From Candidatus Roizmanbacteria bacterium CG_4_9_14_0_2_um_filter_38_17 (GTDB taxonomy: Bacteria > Patescibacteriota > Microgenomatia > GCA-00278855): a stretch of 64,000 nucleotides of DNA. Position numbers and translations under genes: made by a program. How positions within the stretch are numbered: position 1 is the stretch's first letter; every line of letters starts with the position of its first letter. Of the stretch, positions 7,066 through 18,347 are shown piece after piece. The stretch is taken from positions 99,292 to 163,291 of the forward strand of contig PFSB01000006.1 of assembly GCA_002788855.1 (NCBI GenBank), given 5' to 3'. The notes under the pieces were generated by a model. It did not search any database, had not been told where the DNA came from, and worked only from the letters and a program-made list of their open reading frames with translations.

Positions 7066-8513
7066 TGTTGCTTAATAAGTTGAAATTAGGTTTAGTTTTG
7101 GTTGTTGTTTTTGCTGTGTATAGAGTTTGGTTTCGATTGGGAACTTTATCTGCTGGGGATTGGCCTTATCTGTATTTAGAAAATATTGGAGAATTTTCAT
7201 GGTTTCCAGAAATTAGATTTTTGTGGCTTGGATTATATTATCAGATTCCAGCTAAACTTTTTGTGCAAGTACTGGGATTATCATGGGAAGTGGTTGAGAG
7301 GGTTATATGGTTTGTACCTTTTGTACTGCTTTGTGTCTATTCAAGTTATCGTTTAACTAAATCATGGTTGGGGGTATTGGTTTATACAACCAGCACATAT
7401 ATATTAATGGTGGTTGGAGGGGGACAGATGGGGGTAGCTTTTGGATATGCACTGGCGCCTTTGGTGTTGGATTGGTTTGTAAGAGGTAGGAAAGGGTTAT
7501 TAGGAGGGTTATTTGTTTCTTTACAGTTAATGTTTGATCCTCGAATGGCATATATAACTTTGTTTGGGGTGGTTTTGTATTATCTAGTAACAGACTGGAA
7601 AAAAGTGAGGCTCATTATTATTCCTTTGATTATTGCATTTATTTTGAATCTATTTTGGATAGTTCCTATAATTATGTCTGGTACGGGGGAATATGGAGAT
7701 ATATACACAGGTGGAGAAATGGTAGAGTTTTTTAGTTTTGCAAAGTTTGAAAATGCAATTTCACTTTTTCATCCAAATTGGCCTGACAATATATTTGGAA
7801 AAGTGGGATTCCAAAGGCCTGAGTTTATGTTGCTGCCAATTTTGGCATTTTCCAGTCTTTTGTTCTCAAAAAAGCCTAAAATATTATTTTTTGCTTTACT
7901 AGGGTTAGTTGGTTCATTTTTGGCTAAAGGTGCAAATGAACCCTTTGGTATGGTCTATTTGTGGCTATTTGAACATGTTCCTGGATTTGTGATGTTTAGA
8001 GATCCTACTAAATGGTATCTATTAATTGCTTTAAGCTACTCTGTCCTTATTCCATATGTGCTTAATAGTTTCAAGGTTAAATGGGTTGTGTGGTTATTTA
8101 TTGTTTATTGGGTAATTTTAATAAGACCAGTTTGGCTAGGTCAGCTTACGGGTACATTTGAGCCAAAGGCGGTGCCAGGTGAGTATATTGAATTAAAGGA
8201 TTTTATTTATGAGCAAGATGGTGATTTTAAAACACTATGGATTCCTGGTAGGCAGAGATTTGGATTTGTATCCAAGAATCATCCGGCAATTGAAGCTTCA
8301 TCGTCAGCTGAGCTTTCTAGAAGTGAACTTCTAAATAAAAAGGTTAAGTATATTATTGTTCCTTACGATAATCGCGAGGAACTGTTTATTGAGGATCATA
8401 AGTATGTTCCAGCTCTTAGAGCTGAACTCATAGAGGAGCTTGGGCAGTTATCGTGGCTTGAGCATAGCCAAATAGAGAATATAGATATATTTGAAATTAA
8501 AGCAGATAAATAA
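7065..8513 (+). CDS. GT-C fold membrane glycosyltransferase-like protein
   Basis: Multi-TM; VPGFVMFRDPTKW motif shared with the 3174 ORF. Confidence 0.7.
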   Translation: MLLNKLKLGLVLVVVFAVYRVWFRLGTLSAGDWPYLYLENIGEFSWFPEIRFLWLGLYYQIPAKLFVQVLGLSWEVVERVIWFVPFVLLCVYSSYRLTKSWLGVLVYTTSTYILMVVGGGQMGVAFGYALAPLVLDWFVRGRKGLLGGLFVSLQLMFDPRMAYITLFGVVLYYLVTDWKKVRLIIIPLIIAFILNLFWIVPIIMSGTGEYGDIYTGGEMVEFFSFAKFENAISLFHPNWPDNIFGKVGFQRPEFMLLPILAFSSLLFSKKPKILFFALLGLVGSFLAKGANEPFGMVYLWLFEHVPGFVMFRDPTKWYLLIALSYSVLIPYVLNSFKVKWVVWLFIVYWVILIRPVWLGQLTGTFEPKAVPGEYIELKDFIYEQDGDFKTLWIPGRQRFGFVSKNHPAIEASSSAELSRSELLNKKVKYIIVPYDNREELFIEDHKYVPALRAELIEELGQLSWLEHSQIENIDIFEIKADK

Positions 8514-9826
8514 TGTTTAAGATAAGGGCTAAAATATTAGTGGTAGCAGTTATCCTATCTTTAGGGTTAGGCTTTATCTTACATAACTATGCAAAGTATC
8601 CACAAAGAGGTGCTAGTGCTGATGAGTACACCTATTCATTTCTAGGTTTGAGTCTGATTAAAGACGGTGTTCCAACGTCATGGTCTCATTTTTCGGCATA
8701 CAAGAACAAGTACTCATTAACGATTAATAATGCCTACTTTCCAGTAGTATATCCATATTTTGATCATCCACCGCTTAATGGACTCTTAGTGGCATCAGTG
8801 GCACTTTTAAATGGTGAGCGGGAGTTTTATCAGATTAATCTTTCTACAATTCGTTTAGCACCCATATTTTTATTTATGGTTACTTCAACGCTAGTATTTT
8901 TAATAGGCAAAAAACTATATGGCTATAAGACTGGGTTATGGGCTCTCTTAATAAATATAACTACTACTATTATTGTAATGAATGCGCGTGTGGCATTTGC
9001 TGAGAATCTTTTAACTCCATTATTTCTACTAGCTTTGTACTTATATATACTATTTAAGGACAAACTTCGTGTACCAATCGTATTATTATTGGGTACTCTC
9101 TCGGGTCTTGCTATCTGGACTAAAGAGCTAGGGGTAATAGTCTTTATATCCTTGCTGTATCTTTTTATTGAAAGAAAGCAAAGCTTAAGATTGACGCTTC
9201 TACTAGTATCAACGACCCTCCTATTTGGATTTGGTTATGTATTATATGGTGCTTACTTTGACTGGGGATTGTTTAAGGAGATAATATTCATTCAATCTAC
9301 TAGAAATATAGGTCCTGATAATCTCCTGATACTTCTGTTTAAACCAATTATTGTCAATAAGGAGTATTATGATGGGTGGTACTTCTTGGGCTTACTAAGT
9401 ATATTTACAGCTTTAATTAAATATACAAAACATAAAATAATTATTGTTCCTGCTATGACATACTTTCTATTACTTATAGTTAGTGCTTCACAAGATATTA
9501 TATCTGGCTGGTATATGATACCCTTGTTTCCTTTAATGTCTATATTAACTGCGGCGCTATTGGTTGAGAGTCAGCGCAAGTTTAATTGGTATCCATTAGC
9601 GATGTTACTGTTTGTAGGGTTGTCACAGATGAAGTTAATATTTGAGCCTAATTTTGGATTGGCTCCTTCTCAATTTAGACTGTTCATGGTGATTATGTTT
9701 TTACCAGTTATTGGAGCGATGATGCTACAAAATAAGCGTGTTTATAGCTATTTAGTTAGTATCTGGTTTTATTTATTCATCCTGGGAAATGTTTATTTGA
9801 CATATAATTATGTACACCCAGCTTAA
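8513..9826 (+). CDS. ArnT/PMT (GT39-like) membrane glycosyltransferase
   Basis: ADE motif after TM1, YFDHPPL, LAIWTKE, multi-TM. Confidence 0.8.
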   Translation: MFKIRAKILVVAVILSLGLGFILHNYAKYPQRGASADEYTYSFLGLSLIKDGVPTSWSHFSAYKNKYSLTINNAYFPVVYPYFDHPPLNGLLVASVALLNGEREFYQINLSTIRLAPIFLFMVTSTLVFLIGKKLYGYKTGLWALLINITTTIIVMNARVAFAENLLTPLFLLALYLYILFKDKLRVPIVLLLGTLSGLAIWTKELGVIVFISLLYLFIERKQSLRLTLLLVSTTLLFGFGYVLYGAYFDWGLFKEIIFIQSTRNIGPDNLLILLFKPIIVNKEYYDGWYFLGLLSIFTALIKYTKHKIIIVPAMTYFLLLIVSASQDIISGWYMIPLFPLMSILTAALLVESQRKFNWYPLAMLLFVGLSQMKLIFEPNFGLAPSQFRLFMVIMFLPVIGAMMLQNKRVYSYLVSIWFYLFILGNVYLTYNYVHPA

Positions 9827-10048
9827 ATGAAAATACAGGATATTGGTTTTATTGCGGTTTTATTGGTAGTTTTGGTTATGAGGAAACCTCGCCTTTGTGT
9901 TGTTGTTGGATTAGCTTGTTTTGGATTATCTATTCCTTTGTTTGCTACTTGGACATTTTTTACAGCACAGAGGTTGACTTATTATGCCGGCGCATTTATT
10001 CTTCACGCTGTTTTGTTACAGCTATTTATTAGTACACCCCGCAAGTAG
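9827..10048 (+). CDS. Small membrane protein (73 aa)
   Basis: Hydrophobic ORF abutting the upstream stop; a diverged fragment recurs at 11358-11448. Confidence 0.75.
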   Translation: MKIQDIGFIAVLLVVLVMRKPRLCVVVGLACFGLSIPLFATWTFFTAQRLTYYAGAFILHAVLLQLFISTPRK

Positions 10049-10059
10049 CCCTGAATTGC
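10039..10059 (+). repeat. 21-bp direct repeat, copy 1 (CCGCAAGTAGCCCTGAATTGC)
   Basis: 20/21 identical to 11449-11469; each copy lies upstream of a TA operon. Confidence 0.85.
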
Positions 10060-10196
10060 TTTGGAGTCAGAAGGGTTACGCGTAGGCGGACAAGTTATTT
10101 GAACTTGGCAGGACTAATCTAAGCGAGGATAGCGTAAGTTAACTGGGGCATTGCAGAGCTCAATAGCATACCCCACGTGCTATAATATCTACAATA

Positions 10197-10484
10197 ATGC
10201 AGAGATCTGATTTATATAACAATACAAAAGATATTTTTTCTCATTATGGGGTTAAGAAAGCAGCAGTTTTTGGCTCGTATGCTCGTGGTGATAATAGAGA
10301 TGATAGTGATATTGACATTCTTGTTGAATTAGGTAGATCTATGGGTTTAATTGATTATTCTGGATTAAGGCTGGATTTACAGGATAGACTAGGGATGAAA
10401 GTAGATCTAGTTCAGTATAAAACAATAAAACCATCAATAAAGGAGTATATCTTAAAAGACGAAACTGTATTATTTCAAGCGTGA
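10197..10484 (+). CDS. Minimal nucleotidyltransferase (MNT) antitoxin
   Basis: FGSYARGD...SDIDILVE motif, 95 aa; TGcTATAAT promoter at 10178-10186. Confidence 0.93.
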   Translation: MQRSDLYNNTKDIFSHYGVKKAAVFGSYARGDNRDDSDIDILVELGRSMGLIDYSGLRLDLQDRLGMKVDLVQYKTIKPSIKEYILKDETVLFQA

Positions 10485-10807
10485 TGAAAATAGCTACTCC
10501 ATACATTGAGAATATTTTAGATTCAATTGTTCAGATTGAAAAATATTTAACTGAAATTAAATATGATAAAAAGTCTTTTCTAGAGAATATTGAAAAGCAA
10601 GATGCTGTTATTAGACGACTAGAAGTTATAGGTGAAGCTACAAAGAGACTAGAAGAAGATTATAAAAGCCAGTTTCCTAATGTTCCCTGGAAGAATATGG
10701 CAGGGATGAGAGATGTCCTAATTCACGACTATGACGAGGTGGATATTGACTTGGTTTGGGATACTGTAAGTAAAGATTTGGTTGTGCTCAAGGAAGCTAT
10801 TAAATAA
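10481..10807 (+). CDS. HEPN/DUF86 RNase toxin (MNT-HEPN type VII TA)
   Basis: IGEA and MRDVLIHDY (RX4H) motifs; overlaps the MNT stop. Confidence 0.93.
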   Translation: MMKIATPYIENILDSIVQIEKYLTEIKYDKKSFLENIEKQDAVIRRLEVIGEATKRLEEDYKSQFPNVPWKNMAGMRDVLIHDYDEVDIDLVWDTVSKDLVVLKEAIK

Positions 10808-10894
10808 AATAGACTAGTGTAATATTTATGTTTACACTTATTTACAGCCCCTTTTAATGTGGGTGGGTTGAAACAGAATAGCAACCCATAGTGT

Positions 10895-10922
10895 TTGACA
10901 AATAGGCTTTGTTTTGTATACT
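10895..10922 (+). promoter_or_regulatory. Sigma70 promoter TTGACA-N16-TATACT
   Basis: TTGACA 10895-10900, TATACT 10917-10922, ATG at 10931. Confidence 0.7.
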
Positions 10923-10930
10923 CTTTGTAT

Positions 10931-11191
10931 ATGTCAGAAGCTAGACCAGGTATGGTTGTTTATGATGGAGCGTTAATGCAAGCACACGATGTTGCAGAGG
11001 AAATGTTTTGGTATGTCTACGGTGACGATTTATCTGAATCCAGGGAAATAGTTGCTGCGTACCGCAATAGGGCTGTTGGCTGTGGCTGTGGTAGGTGCCA
11101 AAAGGACGAGCATCGTGCATGGAAAGGGGAAATACAAAAGTTTATTGATCCCGAAAGTTTAAGTAATCTTTTTCCACATATAGACTGGTAG
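10931..11191 (+). CDS. Small hypothetical protein with CxCxxC motif
   Basis: MSEARPG...GCGCGRC...; own near-consensus promoter supports start 10931 rather than track start 10895. Confidence 0.65.
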   Translation: MSEARPGMVVYDGALMQAHDVAEEMFWYVYGDDLSESREIVAAYRNRAVGCGCGRCQKDEHRAWKGEIQKFIDPESLSNLFPHIDW

Positions 11192-11204
11192 TTTTTTCAC
11201 CCCT

Positions 11205-11327
11205 TCAGTAGCCCCTTGAGATTAGATCAGCTATATTTTTCCCATCTCTGACTGCTTGGTTGGTTCCTCGGTCTTCTGGATAAACTTGAGCCATATTTAC
11301 TAAATAGAGATTATCTATACCGGTTTT
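11205..11327 (-). pseudogene. 3' fragment of an ortholog of the 12119-13441 FAD oxidoreductase
   Basis: Translates KTGIDNLYLVNMAQVYPEDRGTNQAVRDGKNIADLISRGY*; 11238-11327 is 85/90 nt identical to 12155-12244. Confidence 0.92.
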
Positions 11328-11356
11328 TTTGTTTTAAAACCGGGTTTTAAAACAAA
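11328..11356. repeat. REP-like palindrome TTTGTTTTAAAAC-CGG-GTTTTAAAACAAA (REP-B variant)
   Basis: Perfect 13-bp arms; core AAAAC-nGG-GTTTT shared with REP-B. Confidence 0.85.
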
Positions 11357-11357
11357 T

Positions 11358-11448
11358 ATGTTTCTGTCTTTAATCTTAGCAACTCTTTGGCGTCCACGCC
11401 TGAGTGCTATTGTGGGATTAGTATGTTTGTTATTGTCTATTTCTCTGT
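11358..11448 (+). pseudogene. Diverged fragment of the 9827-10048 small membrane protein gene
   Basis: RPRLSAIVGLVCLLLSISL aligns with KPRLCVVVGLACFGLSIPL; C-terminal half missing. Confidence 0.75.
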
Positions 11449-11469
11449 CCGCAAGTAGCCCTGATTTGC
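11449..11469 (+). repeat. 21-bp direct repeat, copy 2 (CCGCAAGTAGCCCTGATTTGC)
   Basis: 20/21 identical to 10039-10059. Confidence 0.85.
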
Positions 11470-11512
11470 GCCAGAATTAACAAGGTTTGAATCTATCCGG
11501 GGGAGCGATTGT

Positions 11513-11540
11513 TGACAATCTGTACAGAATTATGTAAAAT
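11513..11540 (+). promoter_or_regulatory. TA promoter with YefM-type operator (TGTACA...TGTAAA)
   Basis: TTGACA 11513-11518, TAAAAT 11535-11540; TGTACA 11521 and TGTAAA 11533 are 12 bp apart, like the E. coli yefM-yoeB operator cores. Confidence 0.7.
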
Positions 11541-11546
11541 GAAGAC

Positions 11547-11822
11547 ATGACAATAACAATACCCATAACACAAGCAAGGGAAGAATTGACGAGCCTTGTG
11601 GATAATGTCAAGAGGAAGCTAGATGAGTATGTAATTACAGTTAATGGAACCCCTGCGGCGGTTGTGATATCTTCGGCAGAGTACGAATCTTGGAAAGAAA
11701 CAAATGAAATTCTATCTGATTTGGAACTTACAAAAGCTATAAAGAAGGGTGAGAAAGATGTAGATAAAGGACGGATTTATTCTCTTGAACAGCTGAGAAA
11801 AGAATTGAAACTTGTTTTTTAA
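11547..11822 (+). CDS. Phd/YefM family antitoxin
   Basis: ITQAREEL...YVITVNGTPAAVVISSAEYES signature. Confidence 0.93.
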   Translation: MTITIPITQAREELTSLVDNVKRKLDEYVITVNGTPAAVVISSAEYESWKETNEILSDLELTKAIKKGEKDVDKGRIYSLEQLRKELKLVF

Positions 11823-11827
11823 GTAAG

Positions 11828-12079
11828 ATGTATAGAATACTTATTACTTCTCAAGCTAGAAAAGAACTCAAAAAGATTAAAAAGAAATACCAGCAAGCAA
11901 TAGTAGAAATACTTGTTGAGCTTCAAGAAAATCCCAGATCAGGCAAGCCCCTAACGCGAGAGTTGACTGGAAAATTTTCTTATAAGGTAGGAGTATATAG
12001 AATAATATATACAATTAATGACCTAGATAAGACAATCCATATTCTAACAGCGGGTCATCGTTCTAGTGTATATAAATAG
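11828..12079 (+). CDS. RelE/ParE family toxin
   Basis: Basic 83 aa; KVGVYRIIYTI...AGHRSSVYK. Confidence 0.93.
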   Translation: MYRILITSQARKELKKIKKKYQQAIVEILVELQENPRSGKPLTRELTGKFSYKVGVYRIIYTINDLDKTIHILTAGHRSSVYK

Positions 12080-12087
12080 CTTGTGTG

Positions 12088-12120
12088 AATTTTCTGCAAG
12101 GACAAAACTTGCAGAAAATT
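12088..12120. terminator. Hairpin AATTTTCTGCAAG-GACAAAA-CTTGCAGAAAATT between convergent genes; likely bidirectional terminator/REP
   Basis: Perfect 13-bp arms; related TACAAGGACAAATCTTGTAGAAAA at 47494-47517. Confidence 0.7.
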
Positions 12121-13441
12121 AGTATTCACCAAAGATGATTTTGTCTGCAATTGATTTTCCATCTCTGACTGCTTGGTTGGTGCCTCTGTCTTCCGGATAA
12201 ACTTGAGCCATGTTTACTAAATAGAGATTATCTATACCGGTTTTAACAGGTGGGATATAGTTATGATAATTTGTGTCTACGATGGGTTGAGCAAACTTAT
12301 CTCTAAATATCCAATGTGCATCTACAAAGGACTTGTTAAATTTGGGATTAATTTTCTTTAGTTCTTTAACAATTAGCTCAAATAAGTCTGTTTTATTCAT
12401 GGTCATTAACTCGTCCGTCTGGGCTGGGTAGGCACCAGCATAAAGCAAGTGAGCTCCACTATATTTATTTGGTGATACAAAATTAGTATGTTCAACTACA
12501 GCCAGAATATGTGAATTTGGATCGTTAACGTTTAGCCAATAGATATCTTTCATAAATTGTTTTTTTAGTTGCAAGATGGCCACCATTGCCCCACGATACT
12601 TAACCTTAGCCAGTTTTTCTGTATATTCTGCTGGTAAAGATGGGCAAAGCTTGGCAAAGACTGGATTTGGGGTTGTGACAATAATTTTGTCATATTGCAA
12701 GGTTTGACCTTTTTGAACTTGCAGGGTCAAACCCTGTTTGCTTGAAGGTTTAATTTCAACAATGTCTGAATTGGTATAGAGATTTACCTGCTTATTCCTA
12801 AGCTTCTCTAATAGCTTATCAATTAATAATTTAAATCCTCCATCAAGATAGACCAGCTCCTCATTAGCGCCGTTTCTGGATTTGCTTCGAAGATATAGCC
12901 TTGACCAGAGCCAAGCCATGGATATGCTGTCTGCGTGTTCTCCAAACTTTCCCTTTAAAAGTGGTTCCCAGATTATCTTATATGCCCTTCGGCCCGCGTA
13001 TTTGAGAATCCAGTTGCCAGCTGACAACTGTGCTAGCTTTTTCCAATTTTTATCAGTAACAAATTTTTGTAGATATATTGCCACAAACCCCAGTCTAATT
13101 CGGTCAATAAGGGGTAGAGGAGAGAAATGAAGTAAGTCTTTTGGTGTGGAGAAAGAGTAGATTTTACTGTTGTAGTGGATACCTACTGAACTTGGTAAAT
13201 AAAGTAGCTTATGATCAATATTTAGTTCGTGAATAAGGCCAATAATATCTTTGTCAGATTTAAATAGGTGATGATAGTAGCCTTCAAAACCTACTCCATT
13301 TACTGTAAGCAATCCCAGTAGTCCACCAAAATTAGCATTTTTTTCGTATAGATCTATCTGGTATTCGGGGTTTTGTGAGAGATAATAGGTTGTGCTTAAT
13401 CCTGACATGCCTCCTCCGATTATTGCAATTTTTGTTTTCAT
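12119..13441 (-). CDS. FAD-dependent oxidoreductase (amine oxidase/protoporphyrinogen oxidase-like)
   Basis: IAIIGGGMSGL...EK...GGL; YYHHLF; C-terminal YPEDRG; ATG 13441. Confidence 0.88.
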   Translation of the reverse strand: MKTKIAIIGGGMSGLSTTYYLSQNPEYQIDLYEKNANFGGLLGLLTVNGVGFEGYYHHLFKSDKDIIGLIHELNIDHKLLYLPSSVGIHYNSKIYSFSTPKDLLHFSPLPLIDRIRLGFVAIYLQKFVTDKNWKKLAQLSAGNWILKYAGRRAYKIIWEPLLKGKFGEHADSISMAWLWSRLYLRSKSRNGANEELVYLDGGFKLLIDKLLEKLRNKQVNLYTNSDIVEIKPSSKQGLTLQVQKGQTLQYDKIIVTTPNPVFAKLCPSLPAEYTEKLAKVKYRGAMVAILQLKKQFMKDIYWLNVNDPNSHILAVVEHTNFVSPNKYSGAHLLYAGAYPAQTDELMTMNKTDLFELIVKELKKINPKFNKSFVDAHWIFRDKFAQPIVDTNYHNYIPPVKTGIDNLYLVNMAQVYPEDRGTNQAVRDGKSIADKIIFGEY

Positions 13442-13470
13442 GCTCAATTTAAGGCTTAGCCTTATTTCGC

Positions 13471-17244: not shown

Positions 17245-18347
17245 TGTTAATAGGTGTTGATGGTAATGAGGCTAATCAAGACACAAGGGTAGGAATTGGT
17301 AGGTATGCGATGGAACTGCTATGGCAGTTCTACAATTTTCAAATACCAAATATCAAACTCCAAATTTATTTAAAAGATAAACCGAGAGGCCATATGCCTA
17401 AAGAGAAAGATGGGTGGGAATATAAAATTGTTGGTCCTCGAGCGTTTTGGACACAAATAGGTCTACCAATTGATCTATTTTTAGACAAAAATAGACCAGA
17501 TATATTCTGGACACCAACACATTATGCTCCGCGTTTTTGCCCCGTCCCAAGTATTGTATCGATCATGGACACTTCGTATCTACACTATCCAGAAATGTTT
17601 AAGAAAAGAGATCTATATCAATTGACGAGTTGGAGCAAATATTCAATAAATAACGCAGCTATGGTTTTGACTATCAGTAAAGCAGCAAGAGCTGATATAA
17701 TTAAGTTCTATAATGTTGATCCGACAAAAGTAGTGGTTACTTATCCGGGGATTGTAATGAATAAAAATATACTAACGAATAAGATTTTAGCTAAATATGG
17801 AATTAAGCCCAACTTTATTCTGTATGTTGGCACGCTTCAGCCACGCAAGAATTTAGTTCGCTTAATAGAGGCATTTGGTCTGTTGGAAAATAAGACGTTG
17901 CAGTTAGTTATAGTTGGAAAAAAAGGTTGGTTGTTTGACGAGATATTTACAAAAGTAAATGAGCTAGGACTGGAAGATAGAGTTATTTTTACAGGATTTG
18001 TGCCGGACGAAGAACTTTCAAGCTTCTATCAAGAAGCCAAGCTAATTACTTTAGTAAGTCTGTATGAGGGATTTGGGTTACCACCTCTTGAGGCGATGAG
18101 TTATGGTACGCCAGCTGTAGTTTCAAATGTCTCTAGTTTGCCGGAGATTGTTGGTGAGGCGGGTATTTTAGTTAATCCAGAGGATTCATCAGATATAGCC
18201 TCCGGAATAACGAAGGCTCTTACTATGTCTGATTCGGCTTATAATAAGCAAAGGGAGCTGGCAAAAGCACAAGCAGCTAAGTTTAATTGGAGTGACACAG
18301 CTAGAGAGACGCTTCAAGTATTGCAAAGTGTAGTTGGGAATATATAA
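17241..18347 (+). CDS. Glycosyltransferase family 4
   Basis: VGTLQPRKN, SLYEGFGLPPLEAM. Confidence 0.95.
   Translation: MMLIGVDGNEANQDTRVGIGRYAMELLWQFYNFQIPNIKLQIYLKDKPRGHMPKEKDGWEYKIVGPRAFWTQIGLPIDLFLDKNRPDIFWTPTHYAPRFCPVPSIVSIMDTSYLHYPEMFKKRDLYQLTSWSKYSINNAAMVLTISKAARADIIKFYNVDPTKVVVTYPGIVMNKNILTNKILAKYGIKPNFILYVGTLQPRKNLVRLIEAFGLLENKTLQLVIVGKKGWLFDEIFTKVNELGLEDRVIFTGFVPDEELSSFYQEAKLITLVSLYEGFGLPPLEAMSYGTPAVVSNVSSLPEIVGEAGILVNPEDSSDIASGITKALTMSDSAYNKQRELAKAQAAKFNWSDTARETLQVLQSVVGNI

What the first reader, a model, noticed from the sequence alone, without database searches (positions are those of the whole stretch)
9827..12244. Two alleles of one insertion locus stitched together at a palindrome, each with different TA cargo
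Seen order: gene A(+), 21-bp repeat, MNT-HEPN and an orphan, 3' relic of gene B(-), a perfect 29-bp palindrome, relic of gene A(+), the same 21-bp repeat, YefM-RelE, intact gene B(-). The B relic stops at 11327, the palindrome spans 11328-11356 and the A relic starts at 11358. All 5 differences in 90 nt between relic and gene B are synonymous, and the C-terminal tails differ. Gene B has ACCGGTTTTAA at the breakpoint, close to the palindrome core ACCGGGTTTTAA. Inference: the relic came from a functional ortholog of another lineage, and a whole A-cargo-B junction was imported and joined at a REP-like hairpin. This would be cassette accumulation without an integron integrase, possibly RAYT-mediated.
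Basis: partly seen in the sequence, partly recalled or inferred. Interest (0 to 1): 0.85.

Follow-up and report, generated by a model that had tools for sequence, protein, structure and literature searches.

The report
Stacked toxin-antitoxin cassettes joined at palindrome
A tiny-genome groundwater bacterium carries two different toxin-antitoxin gene pairs stacked in one slot between two genes and joined at a short palindromic repeat; this likely arose when DNA from a relative recombined into the end of one gene and pushed the old gene end aside, a known kind of event whose scars also occur in related bacteria without any palindrome.

Summary
The structure is real. One contig from a separate small run spans the junction with 0 differences. 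The B relic, its five synonymous differences and the perfect 29-bp palindrome are confirmed. The '21-bp repeat' is only gene A's 3' end. The palindrome is one of 28 copies of a REP/TIR family, two of which bracket a Y1 (RAYT-like) transposase gene. Relatives show the A-B gap is a swappable slot: the RelE-side module is 97-99.5% identical in lineages whose neighbouring genes are only 78-91% identical, and it occurs elsewhere with another left flank. Most likely that module entered by recombination in B's 3' end, displacing the resident end (HFIR / C-terminal-displacement type), so the relic is probably the resident copy. The break lies at a unique 10-nt REP half-site (p 6e-4; 6e-3 for any family; post hoc), so a RAYT-made joint stays possible. 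But truncated-gene ends show no REP enrichment (4 of 61, 3.2 expected), and the same scar occurs without REPs in two other genomes. The scan had already noted REP/RAYT modules elsewhere in this genome.

The parts
8513..9826 (+). GT-C / PMT-like membrane glycosyltransferase upstream of the slot (surface-glycosylation region)
   Evidence: PF13231 E 3.6e-10
9827..10048 (+). Gene A: intact 73-aa Patescibacteria membrane protein of unknown function; alleles share the core and differ in the C-terminal tail
   Evidence: 87 homologues, some named Ca. Gottesmanbacteria/Patescibacteria; tails vary among P0001-P0007; found in 61 of 401 class genomes
10039..10059 (+). 3' end of gene A plus 11 nt (the '21-bp repeat'); left boundary of cargo 1
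   Evidence: 20 of 21 to 11449-11469; not REP-like
10197..10484 (+). Cargo 1: MNT antitoxin (type VII MntA-like)
   Evidence: PF18765 E 1.7e-17; NF047752 57.3 bits, cut-off 60
10481..10807 (+). Cargo 1: HEPN (HepT-like) RNase toxin
   Evidence: PF01934 E 1.9e-25; NF047751 55.8 bits, cut-off 60
10931..11191 (+). Cargo 1: 86-aa orphan ORF behind a near-consensus sigma-70-type promoter (10895-10922)
   Evidence: only self-hit among 4 candidates; no usable Atlas hit; promoter 11 of 12
11205..11327 (-). 3' relic of gene B: 90-nt core (11238-11327) plus its own tail and stop; likely the displaced resident end
   Evidence: 85 of 90 to B, 5 of 5 synonymous; 68 of 90 to the distant relative L021; tail start shared with relatives in runs X24 and X7
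11328..11356 (.). REP1: perfect 29-bp palindrome, member of a 28-copy family cognate to the Y1 transposase at G000:C7:17570-18265; the novel joint is at its left edge
   Evidence: in run X24 the same module has 14 unmatched letters left of 11329; 11320-11327 can pair with 11336-11343 as an 8-bp hybrid hairpin
11358..11469 (+). Relic of a divergent gene A allele, 5' end lost and 97 nt deleted internally; part of the mobile module
   Evidence: 74.5% over 55 nt plus 20 of 21; 45% aa, keeps the family pattern
11547..11822 (+). Cargo 2: YefM/Phd antitoxin with its own promoter-like site (11512-11540)
   Evidence: PF02604 E 1.2e-13; promoter 11 of 12
11828..12079 (+). Cargo 2: RelE/ParE-family toxin
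   Evidence: PF05016 E 1.5e-13; TIGR02385 above cut-off; 11930-12152 is 217 of 223 identical to L021
12088..12120 (.). REP2: 33-nt hairpin of a second family (cognate Y1 transposase at G000:C16:6505-7191); its right arm overlaps B's stop codon
   Evidence: 32 of 33 to G000:C16:7190-7222; L021 copy 33 of 33; z -5.05
12119..13447 (-). Gene B: intact FAD-dependent oxidoreductase (PRK07233 family); chimeric 3' end (tail 12119-12154 shared with L021, core 12155-12244)
   Evidence: NF005560 459 bits, cut-off 252; identity to L021 falls from 96-100% to about 78% inside B's last codons
12237..12246 (+). Cryptic REP1 half-site in gene B, at the position that corresponds to the relic's break (after 12244)
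   Evidence: 10-nt exact match to REP1; the only such site in B; 5.8e-4 of genic positions, 6.4e-3 for any of 22 families

Best explanation
The gap between genes A and B is a swappable accessory slot, and this genome holds two alleles of it in tandem, likely because an incoming REP1-A relic-YefM-RelE-REP2-B-end fragment from a close relative recombined by homology into gene B's 3' part and was joined non-homologously at its other end, displacing the resident B end instead of replacing it. Shown: the tandem structure, synonymous divergence of the two B ends, near-identical sharing of the module across lineages, its boundary at REP1's left edge, competence genes in the genome. Inferred: uptake by natural transformation; RecA-type anchoring in B (or single-crossover integration of a small circle through the 90-nt core, which gives the same product); joint formation by short pairing between the REP1 arm and the 8-10-nt half-site in B without a dedicated enzyme; and retention of both cargoes because swapping out a resident toxin-antitoxin pair would be penalised by its stable toxin.
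For: Module mobility: 217 of 223 nt identical to L021 over RelE-REP2-B tail, while L021's B core is 70 of 90 and the whole 6.4-kb syntenic stretch 77.5%. Run X24 holds a 763-nt contig matching 11329-12077 with 4 differences and 14 unmatched letters left of REP1, in a community whose A and B alleles differ by 30 of 226 and 20 of 224. The same run holds a 1680-nt contig with gene A, about 1.3 kb of other sequence, then a B end of the relic's tail type; by coordinates it abuts, with the 30-nt overlap expected of neighbouring contigs and at equal depth (7.21, 7.17), a contig of B that runs on, which suggests a single-cargo allele with that tail (letters not seen). Run X7 has a third B allele with the relic-type tail start. 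5 of 5 synonymous argues against in-genome duplication (p about 0.009). The same scar (74-94-nt duplicate of a neighbouring gene's end, 68-91% identical, cargo between, no REP) occurs in G019 (L144, with a HicAB-like pair by my reading of the ORFs) and G016 (L196, L218), and G000 has further local gene-end duplicates away from REPs. ComEC and DprA are present. The same model was proposed for Vibrio effector-immunity arrays and Rhs loci (PMC5361080, passages).
Against: Plain homology-facilitated illegitimate recombination would be expected to run through the 90-nt homologous core and delete the resident tail, not keep both cores (inference), and microhomology between B and the REP right arm would lose the left arm, which is retained. 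The double coincidence (break at REP1's edge and at a unique half-site, p 6e-4 to 6e-3, post hoc) is more than a random joint needs. PMC5361080 notes that this kind of recombination is rare in experiments. Direction is not proven: no close relative is in GTDB, L021 ends inside RelE, and the X24 pieces are linked by coordinates and depth only; a third X24 piece with the other tail (depth 6.3) ends at the same place.
Confidence: 0.5

Rival explanations
1. Same history, but the non-homologous joint was cut and sealed by the cognate Y1 (RAYT/TIRYT-like) transposase, which would cleave at REP1's edge and capture the half-site in B by base pairing, or excise a single-stranded circle that then integrated by homology.
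For: Break within 1 nt of the palindrome edge; unique 10-nt half-site; in the product the half-site pairs with the REP arm as an 8-bp hairpin that is the + strand minimum-energy fold; an intact cognate transposase is in the genome; TnpA-REP cleaves and strand-transfers single-stranded REP DNA in vitro and selects sites by guide pairing (PMC8266576, passages); a second relic starts 9 nt from a REP at G000:C15.
Against: No enrichment of truncated ends at REPs: G000 3 of 12 (focal included), G019 1 of 29, G016 0 of 20; 3.2 expected in all. No conserved guide tetranucleotide at these palindromes (3 of 56 REP1 flanks). No biochemistry exists, in what I read, for this subclass. Other REP1 copies rarely have a half-site upstream (one 8-nt and two 6-nt matches in 56 flanks, the focal copy among them).
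Confidence: 0.2
2. Opposite direction: the resident carried REP1-dead A-YefM-RelE-B, and a fragment with intact A, cargo 1 and a B end came in, anchored by homology in or upstream of A and joined at REP1.
For: Needs only classical one-anchor integration; would restore an intact gene A; A alleles are mosaic; gives the same joint.
Against: Cargo 2 is the part seen near-identical across divergent lineages; the relic-type tail occurs in relatives in two runs; no near-identical copy of cargo 1 was seen in X24, though absence from contigs proves nothing.
Confidence: 0.2
3. Tandem duplication inside one genome with a REP at the join point, followed by decay and later replacement of one cargo.
For: REP sequences occur at some duplication junctions in E. 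coli (4 of 31, PMC1428787, passages).
Against: 5 of 5 synonymous (p about 0.009); A relic 75% but B relic 94% identical, which does not fit one duplication date; the REP1-A relic-TA block exists elsewhere without the B relic. Later replacement of the intact B by a conspecific allele could also give synonymous differences, so the p value is not decisive alone.
Confidence: 0.05
4. Chimeric assembly across the 33-nt REP shared with contig C4.
For: Contigs break at the REP in 4 of 4 runs; no raw reads were available.
Against: One contig of run X14 spans 11185-11613 without differences; both sides of the joint belong to the same A-B locus; depth is similar on both sides.
Confidence: 0.03
5. Integron or Xer/dif-module cassette array.
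For: Toxin-antitoxin cargo with own promoters; a 28-29-bp inverted repeat resembles a recombinase site in size.
Against: Both tyrosine recombinases score far below the integron-integrase cut-off (119.8 and 67.4 against 265) and lie on other contigs; the palindrome brackets a Y1 transposase and is dispersed in 28 copies; only one copy is at this locus.
Confidence: 0.02

Closest known systems
Sequential displacement arrays by homology-facilitated illegitimate recombination: Vibrio cholerae T6SS effector-immunity arrays and Rhs C-terminal displacement (PMC5361080, passages)
   Same: A conserved gene acts as homology anchor, an incoming module supplies a new 3' end and pushes the old 3' end and old cargo aside; ordinary allele swaps also occur at the same slot; no integrase.
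   Different: The anchor genes are a housekeeping-type oxidoreductase and a small membrane protein, not a polymorphic toxin; cargoes are self-contained toxin-antitoxin pairs; host is a Patescibacteria genome; the joint sits exactly at a REP/TIR palindrome.
TIRtrons / TIRYT, TnpA-Y1 subclass 2.1, and REPtrons / RAYT (PMC3733652 passages; PMC6006769 sections 12 and 15 part 1; PMC8266576 passages)
   Same: A roughly 230-aa HUH/Y1 transposase gene bracketed by inverted palindromes that are also dispersed in the genome; NH[YF]H and Y-x-x-x-NP motifs.
   Different: Perfect A+T-rich hairpins without a GTAG foot; 19 such genes in 1.09 Mb; the papers read describe repeat spread, not capture of gene cassettes.
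Islands that integrate into a gene's 3' end and restore it; tandem accretion
   Same: Displaced 3' end left as a relic at the far side of the insert; target gene stays intact with a new tail.
   Different: No integrase in or near the module; about 0.9 kb only; no short att core shown.
TnpA-REP association with prochlorosin genes (10.1101/2020.03.09.984088, first half of text)
   Same: Proposal that a subclass 2.1 TnpA-REP diversifies neighbouring cargo.
   Different: Its authors later found no strong evidence for or against causality; there the transposase is adjacent to the cargo, here it is on another contig.
Transformation-induced merodiploids in Streptococcus pneumoniae (PMC3784515, abstract)
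   Same: Transformation that would be lethal as a swap yields cells keeping both alleles, joined at a repeat.
   Different: Those are 100-900-kb duplications between two homologous repeats; here one repeat, one half-site and under 1 kb.

Membership tests
HFIR / C-terminal displacement array | Homologous anchor on one side of the insert | tested here: met
   B core 85 of 90; identity step to L021 inside B's last codons
HFIR / C-terminal displacement array | Non-homologous joint at the other end, with at most microhomology | tested here: met
   B sequence ends at 11327 and REP1 begins at 11328; shared letters limited to a T run
HFIR / C-terminal displacement array | Displaced 3' end comes from a different functional allele | tested here: met
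   5 of 5 synonymous, different tail
HFIR / C-terminal displacement array | Simpler single-cargo alleles in relatives | tested here: inconclusive
   X24 contig A-(about 1.3 kb)-B end; link to intact B by coordinates and depth only; L021 ends inside RelE
HFIR / C-terminal displacement array | Host takes up DNA and integrates it by RecA-type recombination | tested here: inconclusive
   ComEC and DprA present; activity not testable; recA not searched
REP/RAYT (REPtron) or TIRtron | Y1 HUH transposase gene bracketed by the palindrome | tested here: met
   G000:C7:17570-18265 between copies at 17516-17542 and 18257-18283; PF01797 above cut-off; NF047646 43 bits, below cut-off 80
REP/RAYT (REPtron) or TIRtron | Dispersed, mostly extragenic copies | tested here: met
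   28 copies, nearly all between genes or at gene ends
Canonical REP (GTAG type) | Conserved GT[AG]G foot 5' of the hairpin | tested here: not met
   3 of 56 REP1 flanks; 0-4 per family in 7 other families
   4 of 61 against 3.2 expected in three genomes
   needs in vitro cleavage/strand-transfer assay
Integron | IntI integrase in the genome | tested here: not met
   2 of 2 tyrosine recombinases below TIGR02249 cut-off, best XerC/XerD
Integron | attC sites after each cassette | not tested
   no attC model search was run; the perfect palindrome lacks the extrahelical bases recalled for attC
Integrative island with 3'-end restoration | Integrase within the element | tested here: not met
   ORF list and Pfam of 9827-12244 show none

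The most novel reading that the evidence does not exclude
Domesticated Y1 (TIRYT/RAYT subclass 2.1-like) transposases of Patescibacteria act as one-ended gene-capture enzymes: they cut at a cognate palindrome on incoming DNA, pair its arm with a cryptic half-site in a chromosomal gene, and together with homologous recombination at the far end add toxin-antitoxin cassettes without an integrase. This junction would be a fossil of that reaction and a ready-made substrate pair for testing the host function of these long-unexplained enzymes.
Probability: 0.2. Interest if true: 0.75.

Novelty: new variant of a known kind. Interest (0 to 1): 0.42.

Why it matters
It shows, at base resolution, how a 1.09-Mb Patescibacteria genome adds rather than swaps accessory genes: small modules travel with a replacement gene end and leave the old end behind, and the same scar is visible in two other genomes of the class. 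That is a known kind of event in a little-studied group. If the joint was made by the cognate Y1 transposase, it would point to a host-useful role for RAYT/TIRYT enzymes, an open question, and the REP1 / half-site pair gives a direct in vitro test.

Tried and rejected
Close relatives: none in GTDB (G000 is alone in its family among those searched; 14 of 60 other genomes gave only distant matches). Exact patterns from RelE and from REP1 found 0 stretches in genome contigs and the REP1 core 0 in viral contigs; the REP1 core with 1 mismatch was in 1 of 401 class genomes, G000 only. In 29 other gene A loci (1.5 kb each side) gene B was not found, so synteny in distant families neither supports nor refutes A-B adjacency; the tally 61 of 401 includes one unpublished genome (G067), on which nothing else rests. 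Of 80 metagenome loci only L021 was close. The 21-bp repeat as a decayed REP: rejected. A conserved guide or target motif beside REP1: not found. First relic test, without frameshift filter: 3 of 16 ends near a REP, 2 of 15 without the focal case, against 10.7% for intergenic positions (P 0.24 and 0.49). The relic lists are automatic: they include some paralogue fragments and spurious ORFs, need a cognate gene in the same genome, dropped hits under 45% identity, under 20 aa or within 150 nt of a stretch end, and G016 was covered for 706 kb of about 800 kb. Joints 11537-11682 and 11537-11630 in the runs come most likely from other organisms' YefM genes and were ignored. No contig skipping a whole cargo was seen in the 4 runs; contigs cannot show absence. 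Orphan ORF: no homologue, no Atlas lead. Contexts of the closest A alleles (P0001-P0004) stayed unchecked. Paper searches: 'candidate phyla radiation' + 'palindromic' + 'tyrosine transposase' gave 0 papers; searches listed no paper on REP-joined cassette stacking in Patescibacteria, which says only that none surfaced in this library.

Full report
1. Setting. The window is G000:C26:99292-163291 of a 1.09-Mb, 28-contig genome. Homologues of gene A are named Ca. The locus lies where a + strand run of membrane glycosyltransferase-type genes meets a - strand operon head-on.

2. Observation. Confirmed. The B relic core (11238-11327) matches gene B (12155-12244) at 85 of 90 nt, all five differing codons are synonymous, and the tails differ. 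The palindrome 11328-11356 is perfect. The A relic matches A at 74.5% over 55 nt and then jumps 97 nt to A's last codons; the '21-bp repeat' is that 3' end plus 11 nt and is no more REP-like than ordinary gene ends.

3. Assembly. 24 runs hold the stretch or part of it. In 4 of 4 runs first laid, contigs cover relic-to-REP and REP-to-A-relic but break at the 33-nt repeat shared with contig C4. In run X14 one 459-nt contig covers 11185-11613 with no differences. These are contigs, not reads, and the 2017-2018 runs may be one campaign, but a chimera is unlikely.

4. The palindrome. It is one of 28 copies (25 exact cores). Two copies bracket a 231-aa ORF at C7:17570-18265 that passes the Y1_Tnp cut-off. 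The genome has 19 Y1_Tnp matches, most bracketed by their own palindromes; 22 core motifs give 290 copies, 66 inside my crude ORF calls. The proteins carry the NH[YF]H and Y-x-x-x-NP motifs of TnpA-Y1 subclass 2.1, which PMC6006769 (abstract, section 12, first part of section 15) equates with the TIRYT genes of PMC3733652 (passages). No GTAG foot is conserved. REP1 was found in 1 of 401 class genomes. A second family member, REP2 (12088-12120), overlaps B's stop codon. The genome's two tyrosine recombinases are XerC/XerD-like and below the IntI cut-off.

5. The slot is swappable and cargo 2 is mobile. L021, the only close hit among 80 metagenome loci, is syntenic for 6.4 kb at 77.5%, yet RelE-REP2-B tail is 217 of 223 identical and identity drops inside B's last codons; the 90-nt core is 85 (relic-B), 70 (L021-B) and 68 (L021-relic) of 90. 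Run X24 (another year and study; its A and B alleles differ by 30 of 226 and 20 of 224) holds REP1-A relic-YefM-RelE at 745 of 749, with 14 unmatched letters left of REP1; it also holds a contig with gene A, about 1.3 kb of other sequence and a B end with the relic's tail start, which by coordinates and depth continues into an intact-running B. A third piece with the other tail ends at the same place, so that link is likely, not shown. Run X7 has a further B allele with the relic-type tail start. A alleles are mosaic in their tails. Together these favour the relic as the resident end and REP1-A relic-YefM-RelE-REP2-B end as the newcomer, and show that REP1 travelled with the module rather than landing on the joint afterwards.

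6. Two alleles, not decay. Under duplication followed by neutral decay, five synonymous differences of five have probability about 0.009. Later allele replacement of the intact B could mimic this, but the unequal divergence of the A and B relics and the independent occurrence of the module point the same way.

7. Is the REP causal? For: the break is at the palindrome edge, and the matching position in B is the only 10-nt match to REP1 in that gene (5.8e-4 of 135,879 genic positions; 6.4e-3 for any family; post hoc). In the product that half-site pairs with the REP's left arm as an 8-bp hairpin. TnpA-REP enzymes of other subclasses cleave and strand-transfer single-stranded REP DNA and choose sites by pairing (PMC8266576, passages). 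Against: truncated-homologue ends within 30 nt of a REP are 3 of 12 in G000 (focal included), 1 of 29 in G019 and 0 of 20 in G016, against 3.2 expected (filters and limits under Tried and rejected). Scars of the same build, a 74-94-nt copy of a neighbouring gene's end with cargo between, occur without a REP in G019 (L144) and G016 (L196, L218), and G000 has many local gene-end duplicates far from REPs. The general process therefore does not need REPs; this joint may still have used one.

8. Mechanism. Best reading (0.5): DNA taken up from a close relative (ComEC, DprA present; competence in Patescibacteria per PMC12455944, passages) anchored by homology in B and was joined at its other end by short pairing between REP1 and the half-site, or integrated as a small circle through the core; either gives A-cargo 1-old B end | REP1-A relic-cargo 2-new B end. 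Retention of both cargoes would be favoured because losing a resident toxin-antitoxin pair is costly (inference from the families' known behaviour). Rivals: transposase-made joint (0.2), opposite direction (0.2), in-genome duplication (0.05), misassembly (0.03), integron/Xer (0.02).

9. Known systems. It works like the displacement arrays proposed for Vibrio T6SS and Rhs loci (PMC5361080, passages) and resembles 3'-end-restoring islands (recalled). REPs at a minority of duplication junctions are reported in E. coli (PMC1428787, passages); an older Salmonella report of REP join-points is recalled only and was not seen. A diversifying role for subclass 2.1 TnpA-REP was proposed and then qualified in 10.1101/2020.03.09.984088 (first half). 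PMC3784515 was seen as abstract only. No supplements were read. It fails membership as an integron and as a canonical GTAG REP system, and the proposed RAYT-built array fails its enrichment test.

10. Verdict. Real, well-resolved, a new variant of a known kind; interest 0.42. The live novel possibility, one-ended cassette capture by a TIRYT/RAYT-like enzyme, has probability about 0.2 and is directly testable with the two sites identified here.

Noticed in passing
window 12698-12740 (inside gene B); L021 equivalent: An in-frame palindrome doublet of a third REP family lies inside gene B's coding sequence; it is perfect in L021 and decayed here, so it predates the split of lineages 78% identical.
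   Followed up: partly
   Followed up: partly
G000:C15:8482-8552 and 12690-12769: Two 3' relics of one gene that has no intact copy in the assembly flank five cargo genes; the second relic begins 9 nt from a REP pair.
   Followed up: partly
L144:8950-10366 (G019), L196:13764-14382 and L218:9531-10056 (G016), L164:16125-17019 (G019): Gene-end duplicates of 74-94 nt with cargo between and no REP: the same displacement scar in other genomes of the class; may be a general route of cargo gain worth a survey.
   Followed up: partly
G000:C1:2900/6598, C2:1549/4055, C11:45863/47164, C15:15072/19077, C25:18671/20916, C26:173899/177289, C27:28794/29778: Further local direct repeats of 46-138 nt around small accessory genes, several of them toxin-antitoxin-like, none at a REP.
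   Followed up: no
REP1 family, 28 copies: The few bases outside the 21-nt core come in about three types that combine freely left and right; the commonest form joins the two outer flanks of the transposase-bracketing copies, as if the element had collapsed to one palindrome.
   Followed up: no
G000:C13:4063-5219: A long tandem array with period about 62 nt and 75-86% identity, outside called genes.
   Followed up: no
window 10173: A C-to-T variant upstream of the MNT gene is the sole allele in runs X7, X8, X9 and X14 but not in X1.
   Followed up: no
run X14, contig over 11185-11613: The contig folds back onto 11214-11185 after 11613, like an amplification chimera; it does not affect the junction.
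   Followed up: no
L110, L113, L118, L120, L125: In distant families gene A is often flanked by small variable genes (by my reading four-helix-bundle and two-gene modules), so its neighbourhood may be a common insertion spot.
   Followed up: no
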